Notes under the pieces: model-generated | Database searches by the model: none | What the model saw: only the letters and a program-made list of their open reading frames with translations | Told to the model about the DNA's origin: nothing | Position numbers and translations under genes: made by a program | Shown: piece after piece, positions 3,532-37,800 of the stretch | Layout: each line of letters starts with the position of its first letter | Numbering within the stretch: the first letter of the stretch is position 1 | Assembly: GCF_030028105.1 (NCBI RefSeq) | Contig: NC_092375.1 | Location: 174,606,597-174,670,596 of the forward strand | Origin: Mobula birostris | Lineage: Eukaryota | Direction: 5' to 3' | DNA length: 64,000 nucleotides

Positions 3532-3753
3532 AAACTAGAGAACATCTGCGGATGCTGGAAATCAAAGTAATACACACAAAATTCTAGAGGAGCTCAGCAG
3601 GCCATCCAGCGTCTGTAGAAAAGAGTAAACAGTCAATGTTTTGGGCCGAGATCCTCCATCAGCACTGATGAACAGTCTCAGCCCTAAGCATTGACTTTTC
3701 TCTCTTCCATAGTGGCTACCTGGCCTGCTGAGTTCCTCCAGCATTTTGTGTGC
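3532..3753. mobile_element. Short palindromic PLE-derived element with two head-to-head degenerate hammerheads
   Basis: Arms acacacaaaattctagaggagctcagcaggcca / tggcctgctgagttcctccagcattttgtgtg; centre catcagcactgatg. Confidence 0.8.
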
Positions 3754-4613
3754 AAAACCTTTTTGGATCATCTTTCATATTATTGACTAGCTTACCTTCA
3801 GATTTCATCTTCCGTCTCCTTATTGCTTTTTTAGTTACCTTCTGTTGGTTTTTTTTAAAAGCTTCCCAATCCTTTGGTTCCCATTCTTGTTTCTGCTTTG
3901 CCTTTGATTAATATCATTTTGAGTGATACTTTAATTCCCTAACCCCATATACTCTGTTCCAAAAAATACACACACTTTTACTTGGAGCAAATGTTTCCAA
4001 GCAGTTTTTATGCTGTTGAGCCCTACCATTAACTGAGGGGTCTATGGACCCTAGGTTGGGAGCCTCTGAACTATCTAGGTTCCCTTGAAGACCCACTGCA
4101 TCCTTGTAGCTCATGCTAGTACTTAACAGTGTAACAGCAACTGACTTGGAAATGTTACAGTTGATCTCTTCATCCAAATCAGTGAAATAATTTGTGAACA
4201 GTCTGGGATTCAGCTCTGACCCTTGTAGCACCTCATTGGTCACACACAGTCTTTCAAACTTCCTGCTGTGCTCTTTAACCAACATTCAGTTCATTCCACC
4301 CTGTTAGAATCTCTAATTTTATTTAATAACTTCTTGTGTGGCTTTCGACATGTCTAAGAAACAGTACAACTGCTGGTCCCACTTTATTTGTTCCACTAGA
4401 GTCATAGAACGATTAAGCAAGCCCTCTGGTCGTGGTCACATCCTGGTAAATCTTTTCCACACTCTTTCCAGTTTTAACCCCATCATTCCTATAACAGGGT
4501 AACCAATTCAGTACACCGTACTCTTCATGTGGCCTCACCGACGACTTCTGCAACTCAACATAATGCCCTAAATCTTATACTCAGCACCCTGACTGATGAA
4601 GGCCATTGTGATA

Positions 4614-34800: not shown

Positions 34801-37800
34801 TATATGGGAGGCAGGGTTTGAGGGTCGGCACAGCAATGTGGGCCGAAGGGCCTGTACTATTCTATTCTATGTTCTATAAAAAAAAACTGTACACAATACT
34901 CAAAGTGTGGCCTCACCAATGACTTGTCTAACTGCAAATAATGTCCCTACTCTTAAACTCAGTGCCCTGATTGATGAAGACCAGCATGCCTTCACCATGC
35001 CGTCTACGTGCATAGCCGTGGGGGGAGGGTGGTGGTGGTGTAGAGGGGGAAGGTTTTAGTCAGCCAGATGAATGGTATGATACAGGAAGGAGAAGAATAA
35101 ATTGAATAAAATAAAATAGAAGTTCTGAAATGTTGGTGTAAGTTTTATTTTTCATTTTCTTGAATCTGGTATGGAAACACCAATGCCTTTGAATGGAAAA
35201 TCCAGGGGGTTCGGCCCAGTATATCACGAGTAAAACCCTCCCAACCATTGAGCATGTCTACAGAAAGCGCTGTCATACGAAAGCAACATCCATCATCAGG
35301 GATCCCCACCACCCAGGTCATGCTCTCTTCTCACTGCTGCCATCAGGTACAAGCCTCAGGACTCGCATCACCAGGTTCAAGAACAGTTACTACCCCTCAA
35401 CCATCAGGCTCTTGAATAAAAGGGATAACTACACTGAACCCTAATGCCCCATCATTAAAATATTCCCACAACCAATGATCTCATTTTCGAAGACTCTTTT
35501 ATCTCATGTCCTCATTATTTATTGCTATTTATTTATATTTGCATTTGCAATTTGATGTTTTCTGCACTCTGACTGATCTTTCATTGATCCTGTTATAGTT
35601 ACTATTCTGTAGATTTGTTGATTATACCGACAAAAATGAATCTCAGGGTTGTATATGGTGAGATACATATCTAATTAGATAATAAAATTTACTTTAAACT
35701 TTGAATCCTGTTCTCTGATCTTAGAGTGCCAGTGATAATCCCTGAATAGTCAGCTTTACCAGCATATATTCAAGTTAGCCACTTGTCAATTAAGATAAAA
35801 ATTCATAATTAAAACTGAAAATAGTAATTGTATTTTAACAACTAACTTTTATAATTTGATGGTAAAGCATGGTAAAACCAGAATCAGAATCAGGTTTATT
35901 ATCACCGGCATGTGACGTGAAATTTGTTAACTTAGCAGCAGCAGTTCAGTGCAATACACAATCTAGCAGAGAGGAGACAAAAAAAAGGAATAATAATAAT
36001 AATAATAAAATAAAACATAAATAAACAAGTAAATCAATTACATATATTGAATAGATTATTAAAAATATGCTAAAACAGAAATACTATATATTAACGAAAG
36101 TGAGGTAGAGTCCAAAGCTTCAAAGTTCATTTAGGAATCGGATGTCAGAGGGGAAGAAGCTGTTCCTGAATCACTGAGTGTGTGCCTTCAGGCTTCTGTA
36201 CCTACCTGATGGTAACAGTGAGAAAAGGGCATGCCCTGTGTGCTGGAGGTCTTTAATAATGGACGCTGCCTTTCCAAGACACCACTTCCTAAAGATGTCC
36301 TGAGTACTTTGTAGGCTAGTGCCCAAGATGGAGCTGACTAGATTTACAACCCTCTGCAGCTTCGTTTGGTCCTGTGCAGTAGCTCCTCCATGCCAGACAG
36401 TGATGCAGCCTGTCAGAATGCTGTCCATGGTACAACTATAGAGGTTTTTGAGTGTATTTGTTGACATACTAAATCGCTTCAAACTCCTAATAAAGTGTAG
36501 CCGCTGTCTTGCCTTCTTTGTAACTACATCGATATGTAACGGGTGGGTTGAAGGGAAATGAGAATGAGAAATAAAGTCATAAATATGGGAGAAAATTATG
36601 GCAAATCAGACGCGATACTGCACTTTAGAAATAATGGTTTTTTCAAGGCAGGCTCCTGTTACGGTTAGAATTAGGCAACGTGGCCTTGTTATTGTGGTTA
36701 CTACCGGGGCACCGTATATAAAATCAAACCATATGCAGTGGATCAACAAGGTACTATCAATCACATAACATGGCTGTACCGTGCTTCTTGCTATTCATAA
36801 GATAATGTTAACCACTTTATGGGAAATTTGAAAGCAAAGTATCAAACACTTAGCGTTAGAATAAGTATGTAAAAGCTGCTGTGGGGTATTTTGATGATGA
36901 CATGAAGGTTTCTATACTTGCTGTGCACCATGCCACTAGCGTTTAGGGCAGGCATGAAGGTGCTCCATCTTTGCCTGCCCATACAGTTGCACACAAATAT
37001 AGAAGGATTCTTCATTGCTGTTTCTGTAACTATTTCTTTTTACCAGTCGGGGTTGTTAGCCCAGAGCTGAACCTCTGAGCCTGGAAGACCGGTGGACCAC
37101 ACTTAGTCTGGCCTCTACCTTTTGACCTGTTTGGCATGGATGACCCTACCAAGAGCCAAAGTATAAAGCACTGACACCTGCCAACATAACTCTCCAGGTC
37201 ATTGAGGCACACAAGCCTCAAAACCCTCTGGCAAGGATGTGGTCCGCTTGGAGGTCTTTTAACAATGAGAATGCTTATGTCAGTGGTTGCCAGTCTGGGA
37301 TCCACGGACCTCTTGGTTAATGGTAGAAGTCCGTGGCATAAAGAAGGTTGGGAAACCCTGTCTTTAATATTTCTTTTGTTCCTTGCATATTATTTTATGA
37401 CTTCACTTCTGCTAACTTGACTTTCTTTATCTACCCTACCTGCTTCCATACAAGAGGGACCAATCAAGCTATTCTGTAGGTTTTTATGCTCTATTGGTGT
37501 TGTACATCACATTGTGTGTCTGTCTTTCCGGCATTCATATGTGTTGTTGACTGTTTTTTTTCCAGTGCATTTTATTAAACAAAAGATGCTGGGAATGCTC
37601 AGCAGGCCAGGCAGCATCTGTGAGGACACTTTGATAACTTGTTTTGCTCTCCATAGTTGCAGCTTGACCGACTGAGCTTTTCCAAGACTTCCTGTGTTGT
37701 TTCAGATTTTCAGCAACTTGGCATTTCACTTTTAGATTACAAATAGAAAACCTAGATAATTTTATCTACTTGAAATAAATATTAATAGAAAATTTCACAA

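What the first reader, a model, noticed from the sequence alone, without database searches (positions are those of the whole stretch)
3532..37725. Dispersed family of short palindromic, hammerhead-derived elements with ~12-15-bp TSDs
Seen: at least seven 90-230-bp elements (3532, 4614, 8988, 17360, 24520, 27974, 37578; weaker at ~30865 and ~52180) consist only of two inverted copies of the PLE tail (…aaaatgctggaggaactcagcaggccaggcagcatctatgg… / …ccatagatgctgcctggcctgctgagttcctccagcatttt…). The inversion point varies and often falls in or beside the hammerhead; at 3532 two hammerhead remnants meet head to head at catcagcactgatg. One arm always runs ~40 nt further, to a …tgcaga…gtgttt-like end. 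Several have long TSDs (perfect 15-mer at 27959/28062; degenerate at 4614, 8988, 17360). The architecture is a miniature of the 766-2501 insertion. Inference: these look like DNA MITEs but are retrotransposed products of a PLE machinery that makes staggered ~15-bp cuts and inverts near the ribozyme. They could be abortive insertions or a non-autonomous, retrozyme-like hairpin family. I cannot confirm whether this is already described.
Basis: partly seen in the sequence, partly recalled or inferred. Interest (0 to 1): 0.8.

Follow-up and report, generated by a model that had tools for sequence, protein, structure and literature searches.

The report
Head-to-head stubs of Penelope retrotransposon
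These small mirror-image repeats are stub-sized insertions of a Penelope-type jumping gene, and their fixed pattern (one long end, one short end, a 14-base duplication) suggests that the enzyme copies its RNA into both cut DNA strands, starting from two different points.

Summary
The elements are real. Each is two 5'-truncated 3' ends of a Neptune-type Penelope-like retrotransposon (PLE) joined head to head; roughly 100,000 genome-wide (14 in 570 kb). They are the short end of a continuum that includes the 766-2501 insertion, not a MITE or retrozyme family: junctions vary, and arms run into GIY-YIG/RT coding sequence in longer copies. Inverted copies and the one-sided 30-40 nt 'tail' are published PLE hallmarks. 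Measured here: TSD mode 14 bp (43 of 53 are 12-15); TSDs flank tailed/tail-less pairs (74 of 146) but no tail/tail or tail-less/tail-less pair (0 of 31); either arm can reach further 5' (12 vs 8), so neither is a simple copy of the other; 5' ends pile up at the hammerhead's upstream half (about -31), not its cut site; target preference is two-fold symmetric. Best model: both staggered nicks prime reverse transcription, one at each of two internal RNA start sites. Five of the seven fold or pair only weakly or lack a clear TSD; 30865 and 52180 are single arms. This scan noted similar elements before in other genomes.

The parts
751..765 (+). left 15-bp TSD of the long head-to-head insertion (second copy 2502-2516)
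   Evidence: exact 15-mer at 751 and 2502 only
766..1792 (-). tail-less long arm: C-terminal part of PLE ORF with CX4CX2C linker and GIY-YIG endonuclease (1115-1798), 3' UTR, hammerhead
   Evidence: translation; Pfam GIY-YIG E 1.3e-4 at cut-off; junction
1790..2501 (+). tailed long arm: end of endonuclease, 3' UTR, hammerhead, 36-nt tail
3532..3752 (.). short head-to-head insertion: tailed antisense arm to 3667, tail-less sense arm from 3665; no clear TSD
4614..4842 (.). short head-to-head insertion: tailed antisense arm to 4741, tail-less sense arm from 4743; TSD core 4607-4615 / 4845-4853
8988..9147 (.). short head-to-head insertion: tailed antisense arm to 9076, tail-less sense arm from 9081; TSD 8972-8985 / 9150-9163 (12 of 14)
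17360..17565 (.). short head-to-head insertion: tailed antisense arm to 17486, tail-less sense arm from 17487; degenerate TSD 17344-17355 / 17567-17578 (10 of 12)
24512..24657 (.). head-to-head insertion with a tail-only antisense arm (to 24558) and a tail-less sense arm (from 24574); little overlap, no hairpin, no clear TSD
27959..28076 (.). youngest short insertion: 15-bp TSDs 27959-27973 and 28062-28076; tail-less antisense arm 27974-28017, tailed sense arm 28017-28061
37579..37718 (.). old degraded head-to-head pair: tail-less antisense arm to 37622, eroded tailed sense arm from 37650; no TSD
30867..30941 (-). single old antisense arm, no partner found
52189..52281 (-). weak single antisense arm of a diverged relative, no partner found
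   Evidence: E 5.8e-4 in a 500-nt search

Best explanation
Each element is an independent, heavily 5'-truncated insertion of an endonuclease-positive, Neptune-type PLE (shown). The PLE protein nicks both target strands about 14 bp apart (inferred from TSD geometry; the duplication requires 3' overhangs). Both 3' ends prime reverse transcription on PLE RNA, one at the distal start site (tail end, +32..+46 from the proximal site) and the other at the proximal site (inferred). Each cDNA stops independently, often at about -31 where a class of template RNA seems to begin (inferred), and the two cDNA ends are joined by short microhomology or a few added bases (shown at sequence level). Fill-in gives TSD - antisense arm - sense arm - TSD with the tail on one side only. 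The short palindromes are dead-end products, not a family that copies itself.
For: Arms continue into GIY-YIG and RT coding sequence in longer copies of both subfamilies. Two partial tandems show that the tail is internal to a continuous unit running into the next ORF (L187, L188), as in the in vitro Anolis PLE, which cuts and extends both strands, starts at two internal sites that delimit the tail, and is modelled as a dimer (PMC11167929). TSD 12-15 bp in 43 of 53, mode 14. TSD score >=9 in 74 of 146 tailed/tail-less pairs, 0 of 20 tail/tail, 0 of 11 tail-less/tail-less; 14 of 14 adjacent pairs in the 570-kb unselected sample are tailed/tail-less. Tail-less arm reaches further 5' in 12 of 20, tailed arm in 8 of 20, so in 12 each arm holds sequence the other lacks. 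Arm lengths form a continuum to >1.6 kb. A-rich bias at -9..-6 on both sides of the TSD, read on opposite strands (117 of 220 and 102 of 220 vs about 30% background). Central microhomology mean 1.68 vs 0.65 expected (25 junctions).
Against: No biochemical test on this family. Frangieh et al. saw no difference in start site between top and bottom strand and no target-RNA homology, whereas 1-2 nt microhomology is enriched here (1.25 vs 0.41 and 1.36 vs 0.54). Two tail/tail palindromes exist (L113, L166; no TSD found), as do TSD-flanked single arms (7 of 42 examined), three long tailed/tail-less pairs without a TSD (L122, L125, L128) and multi-arm structures (L111, L114, L118). Arms of one insertion usually share a haplotype (16 of 22 fully concordant vs 5.9 expected), which fold-back copying also predicts. 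Later central deletions could mimic unequal 5' ends. 58 of the adjacent tailed/tail-less pairs came from searches with tailed/tail-less queries and are not independent support. The -9..-6 window was chosen.
Confidence: 0.7

Rival explanations
1. One priming event, then self-priming: the first (tailed) cDNA, or an antisense template, folds back and is copied, stopping about 36 nt short; later central deletions make the arms unequal. Self-priming was proposed for inverted PLE structures by Arkhipova et al. 2013.
For: Explains the one-tail rule and haplotype concordance (9 of 98 diagnostic sites discordant vs 33% expected). Some centres are near-symmetric (-31/-32, -33/-33). PMC3846280 passages.
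Against: Tail-less arm extends further 5' than the tailed arm in 12 of 20 unselected pairs, up to 800 nt, and in several ends at the -31..-36 boundary while the tailed arm is much shorter (L036, L095, L114, L117). L154 arms differ at three linked sites matching two common haplotypes; L050 and window 766 arms are not each other's close relatives, though gene conversion could do this.
Confidence: 0.15
2. Short elements are mainly long head-to-head insertions that collapsed later by central deletion of an unstable palindrome.
For: Continuum of lengths; microhomology at centres.
Against: 5' ends pile up at -37..-18 (45 of 132 arms) and 5 of 7 TSD-flanked single arms, which are not palindromes, also start at -30..-34. 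Short forms are common in the young subfamily.
Confidence: 0.08
3. A non-autonomous, self-propagating hairpin RNA family (retrozyme-like) mobilised by the PLE protein.
For: High copy number; some junctions recur (3 of the 26 parsed best matches to L102 share its junction class); 4 of 14 unselected short elements keep an intact core.
Against: 42 junction classes in 53 insertions; recurrent junctions lie on different haplotypes; no copy of the 27974 junction among 39 other scored loci; both outer ends sit at priming sites, which copying of a hairpin RNA would not give; non-LTR retrozymes are head-to-tail tandem arrays.
Confidence: 0.05
4. DNA MITE.
For: Short, palindromic, abundant.
Against: TSD 12-17 bp and variable; unequal ends; variable centre; arms are PLE 3' ends.
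Confidence: 0.01

Closest known systems
EN+ Penelope-like element insertions with inverted 5'-truncated copy and one-sided tail (Craig et al. 2021, PMC8557442; Arkhipova et al. 2013, PMC3846280)
   Same: RT plus C-terminal GIY-YIG, pLTR partial tandems, head-to-head inverted copy, 30-40 nt tail at one end, TSD around the whole unit.
   Different: Here both copies are often only 45-140 nt, TSD mode is 14 bp (8-10 bp in the rotifer cases read), copy number is about 1e5, and the tail is shown to be mutually exclusive between arms rather than 'optional'.
Poseidon PLE of Anolis in vitro (Frangieh et al. 2024, PMC11167929)
   Same: Both strands cut and extended; two internal start sites delimit the tail; predicted dimer; hammerhead cleavage not needed.
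   Different: Different clade (linker zinc finger here); ORF there starts inside the hammerhead, here apparently after the tail; the parts read do not report a stagger or coupling of the two start sites in one event.
Minimal hammerheads of metazoan PLEs (Cervera and de la Pena 2014, PMC4209133)
   Same: Same core with an extra base before stem II and a palindromic, loop-less helix III; that paper already notes pairs of motifs 100-700 bp apart on opposite strands in Schistosoma.
   Different: Those pairs were not analysed as TSD-flanked insertion units in the parts read.
Non-LTR retrozymes (Li et al. 2026, bioRxiv 10.64898/2026.07.22.740005)
   Same: Derived from PLE pLTRs, type I hammerhead, no ORF.
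   Different: Retrozymes are head-to-tail tandem repeats with a hammerhead in each unit; these are head-to-head pairs with variable junctions and mostly broken cores.
L1 twin priming (recalled, not read; only search listing)
   Same: Second target strand primes on the RNA, giving an inverted part inside one TSD.
   Different: In L1 the two parts cover different stretches of the RNA; here both cover the same stretch and start at two fixed sites 36 nt apart.

Membership tests
EN+ PLE | RT followed by C-terminal GIY-YIG endonuclease in one ORF, upstream of the terminal module | tested here: met
   GIY-YIG at cut-off; RVT_1 E 8e-4, below curated cut-off; RT motifs visible in translation; copies seen are broken, no intact ORF found
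EN+ PLE | pLTR formed by partial tandem | tested here: met
   L187 and L188, 2 of 5 stretches fetched
EN+ PLE | 30-40 nt tail at one end and inverted 5'-truncated copy | tested here: met
   Bimodal 3' ends 36 nt apart
EN+ PLE | minimal hammerhead in the pLTR | tested here: met
   Core and stems present by sequence, matching the description; no Rfam hammerhead hit in the window; self-cleavage not testable
Neptune clade | CX2-5CxxC linker plus two cysteines inside GIY-YIG | tested here: met
   P0001 translation against description; shared with Nematis
Neptune clade | RT phylogeny with Neptune | not tested
   No reference sequences fetched
Non-LTR retrozyme | head-to-tail tandem units each with a hammerhead | tested here: not met
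   Head-to-head pairs; one head-to-tail join only, inside L118
Non-LTR retrozyme | circular RNA intermediate | not testable with these tools
   Only contigs of other organisms with guessed RNA status
Non-autonomous family (any) | many copies descending from one master junction | tested here: not met
MITE | fixed short TSD and symmetric TIRs | tested here: not met
   TSD 12-20 bp, unequal ends
MITE | TIR similarity to a transposase family | not testable with these tools
   No Dfam/Repbase here; arms are accounted for by the PLE

The most novel reading that the evidence does not exclude
PLE integration is an obligately paired reaction: a protein dimer nicks the target 14 bp apart and its two RT sites start 36 nt apart on one and the same RNA, the distal one displacing the first cDNA, so that one RNA is copied twice in opposite genomic directions. 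The tail would then be the footprint of the dimer, and the head-to-head structure the default PLE product rather than a result of self-priming. The one-tail rule, the haplotype concordance of arms and the symmetric target bias all fit; nothing here proves a single RNA.
Probability: 0.35. Interest if true: 0.75.

Novelty: new member of a known kind. Interest (0 to 1): 0.45.

Why it matters
How PLEs make inverted repeats and a one-sided tail is named as an open question (PMC8557442). About 1e5 short, TSD-flanked insertions give a natural record of that reaction and three concrete predictions for the existing in vitro system: a 14-bp stagger, different start sites on the two strands of one molecule, and no need for fold-back. 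Practically, such stubs can be mis-annotated as MITEs or miRNA hairpins (weak mir-3202 hit on the 3532 element), and the long-armed ones would form double-stranded RNA if transcribed (not shown).

Tried and rejected
Rfam scan: no hammerhead family hit at E<=1. Ribozyme cut site as breakpoint: rejected, 4 of 132 arm 5' ends at -7..+2. Splicing as cause of the -31 boundary: a branch-point/pyrimidine/AG-like sequence lies just upstream, but 0 of 78 arms ending at -36..-28 continue into upstream element sequence and no canonical joint appeared among the 15 of 98 joints shown; not supported, not excluded. An added A after -31 looked like a run-off signature but comes mostly from copies selected for likeness to L102; in unselected arms the preceding base is G 4, T 3, C 1, so I dropped it. 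Expression: no RNA holder on record; contigs of four runs from other organisms cover the module heavily but cannot show strand, ends or level. Two-template test: only a mild excess of discordance (9.2% at diagnostic sites vs 4.6% background) and a reticulate haplotype structure, so suggestive only. No full-length copy with a non-tandem 5' end was found in 21 upstream stretches. RT phylogeny, homologue searches and folds were not run. Earlier-findings look-ups by sequence and by genome returned nothing.

Full report
Observation. The window lies in a 4.0-Gb genome whose identity I did not determine. All seven listed loci consist of an antisense arm followed by a sense arm of one terminal module. 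The 15-mer at 27959/28062 is exact, and the long insertion has its own exact 15-mer at 751/2502. TSDs are degenerate at 4614, 8988 and 17360 and not convincing at 3532, 24520 and 37578. Four elements fold as strong hairpins, three do not because their arms barely overlap, and the two 'weaker' sites are single arms.

What the arms are. The long insertion encodes the end of a GIY-YIG endonuclease preceded by a CX4CX2C motif, in the same sense as the hammerhead. Other copies extend through a reverse transcriptase (Pfam score below the curated cut-off, motifs visible). The older subfamily that most window elements belong to also runs into endonuclease sequence in longer copies. Two of five fetched stretches are partial tandems in which hammerhead and tail continue into the start of the next unit. 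The linker motif points to Neptune or Nematis; no tree was built. Coordinates below: 0 for 5' ends is the predicted hammerhead cleavage site; 0 for 3' ends is the proximal end, with the tail running to about +36.

Abundance. In 57 stretches of 10 kb taken at round coordinates (6 of them beside the window) there are 99 profile hits and 14 adjacent head-to-head pairs after filtering. By my arithmetic this is about 98,000 short pairs genome-wide (Poisson range about 54,000-165,000). The window, with seven, is richer than average.

Ends and TSD. 3' ends are bimodal, near 0 and near +36..+41. Among 200 antisense-then-sense pairs at any distance in the loci held, a TSD score of 9 or more was found in 74 of 146 tailed/tail-less pairs (one a false nested pairing), 0 of 20 tail/tail, 0 of 11 tail-less/tail-less, and 3 of 23 with an unclassified end (Fisher p 6e-9). 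Many of these loci were retrieved with tailed/tail-less queries, so the unselected counts matter more: 14 of 14 adjacent pairs in the 570 kb and 8 of 8 off-centre pairs are tailed/tail-less; in 26 loci picked on the tail alone the adjacent pairs are 7 tailed/tail-less, 1 tail/tail, 2 tail-less/tail-less inside multi-arm structures and 1 unclear. In 53 of 55 young-subfamily pairs the TSD could be measured: 12 bp 5, 13 bp 10, 14 bp 22, 15 bp 6, 16-20 bp 10. Target and element share slightly more sequence than chance at both ends. Flanks are A-rich at -9..-6 on both sides when read on opposite strands (55 sites; window chosen), as a two-fold symmetric nuclease would give.

Centres. 53 junctions fall into 42 classes; 25 have no insert (mean microhomology 1.68 vs 0.65 expected) and 28 have 1-101 added bases (two pairs could not be parsed). 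Three of the 26 parsed best matches to L102 share its junction class, but on other haplotypes than L102. The distinctive 27974 junction has no twin among 39 other scored loci. In 20 pairs not selected as palindromes the tail-less arm reaches further 5' in 12 and the tailed arm in 8. Arm lengths run continuously from about 35 nt to over 1.6 kb. Of 132 arms not selected on their 5' end, 45 end at -37..-18, 20 at -149..-38 and 4 at -7..+2 (some far-upstream ends are subfamily artefacts). Five of 7 TSD-flanked single arms start at -30..-34 (42 arms examined). So the boundary is the upstream edge of the hammerhead, not its cut site. An earlier scan note (e1-7858714) suggested that the template RNA begins there; I adopt this as an inference, since my data cannot tell a transcription start from a stall, and splicing found no support.

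One template or two. Arms of one insertion share diagnostic variants far more than chance (16 of 22 concordant vs 5.9). A few differ at linked sites (L154, L050, window 766), but the overall excess over background is small and gene conversion is possible.

Mechanism. Shown: PLE origin, TSD size, the one-tail pattern, independent 5' ends, junction chemistry at sequence level. Inferred: two nicks 14 bp apart, each priming at a different internal site, then joining of the two cDNA ends. This matches the in vitro behaviour of the Anolis element (both strands extended, two start sites, modelled dimer) but adds coupling, which that paper does not report in the parts read. Self-priming, proposed in PMC3846280, predicts a tail-less arm nested in the tailed one and needs extra deletions for 12 of 20 cases. 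Against my reading: two tail/tail palindromes without TSD, TSD-flanked single arms, three long pairs without TSD, and multi-arm structures.

Literature seen. PMC11167929: parts 1-2 of 4. PMC4209133: parts 1-2 of 4. bioRxiv 10.64898/2026.07.22.740005: parts 1-2 of 5. PMC8557442, PMC3846280, PMC8969392, PMC2377424: passages only. No supplements were read; those of PMC11167929 and PMC3846280 may bear on stagger and tail pairing. Nine searches listed no paper devoted to short head-to-head PLE stubs, a 14-bp TSD or strict tail pairing; the library lacks most subscription papers, the 2005-2006 PLE reviews were not read, and Dfam/Repbase could not be searched. L1 twin priming is recalled.

Verdict. 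Real and abundant, but the short end of a known PLE insertion architecture rather than a new family; the scan has noted the like in other genomes. Its value is the quantitative pattern, which makes an open mechanistic question testable. Interest 0.45.

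Noticed in passing
L111:1462-1642: TSD-flanked multi-piece insertion in which a tail end is joined exactly to the first base after the predicted hammerhead cut site; a single case that fits a template jump from a cleaved RNA.
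   Followed up: partly
L118:1267-1550: Three-arm insertion with a head-to-tail join of the tail-less end to position -31/-30, a one-off unit of about 95 nt resembling a retrozyme-like monomer.
   Followed up: partly
L113:1497-1626 and L166:1501-1769: Tail/tail palindromes without a detectable TSD; exceptions to the one-tail pattern.
   Followed up: partly
L114:1501-1732: Centre carries a 31-nt repeat of part of the antisense arm, suggesting re-priming or slippage.
   Followed up: no
window 766: The tail-less arm of the long insertion starts 28 nt before the usual proximal site, at a place where target and element share several bases.
   Followed up: partly
L168:1160-1500 and L169:1243-1640 (sense orientation): The PLE ORF's N-terminal region holds tandem repeats of roughly 190 bp with varying copy number.
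   Followed up: no
L187:640-667 and window about 2345-2370: Branch-point-like motif, pyrimidine tract and AG, also initiator-like, directly upstream of the hammerhead in both subfamilies; Drosophila Penelope has an intron ending at helix I.
   Followed up: partly
L126 and L127: Two copies on one chromosome with the same 5' end and haplotype; probably a segmental duplication.
   Followed up: no
window 42345-42951: Nested set of long inverted repeats unrelated to the PLE module; looks like rearranged DNA-transposon ends (impression, untested).
   Followed up: no
window 45438-45509: tRNA-like hit just below the Rfam cut-off, possibly a SINE head.
   Followed up: no
window 2959-3066 / 3745-3852 and 13866-14113 / 15419-15711: Other inverted repeat pairs around or apart from the elements, probably oppositely oriented dispersed repeats.
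   Followed up: no
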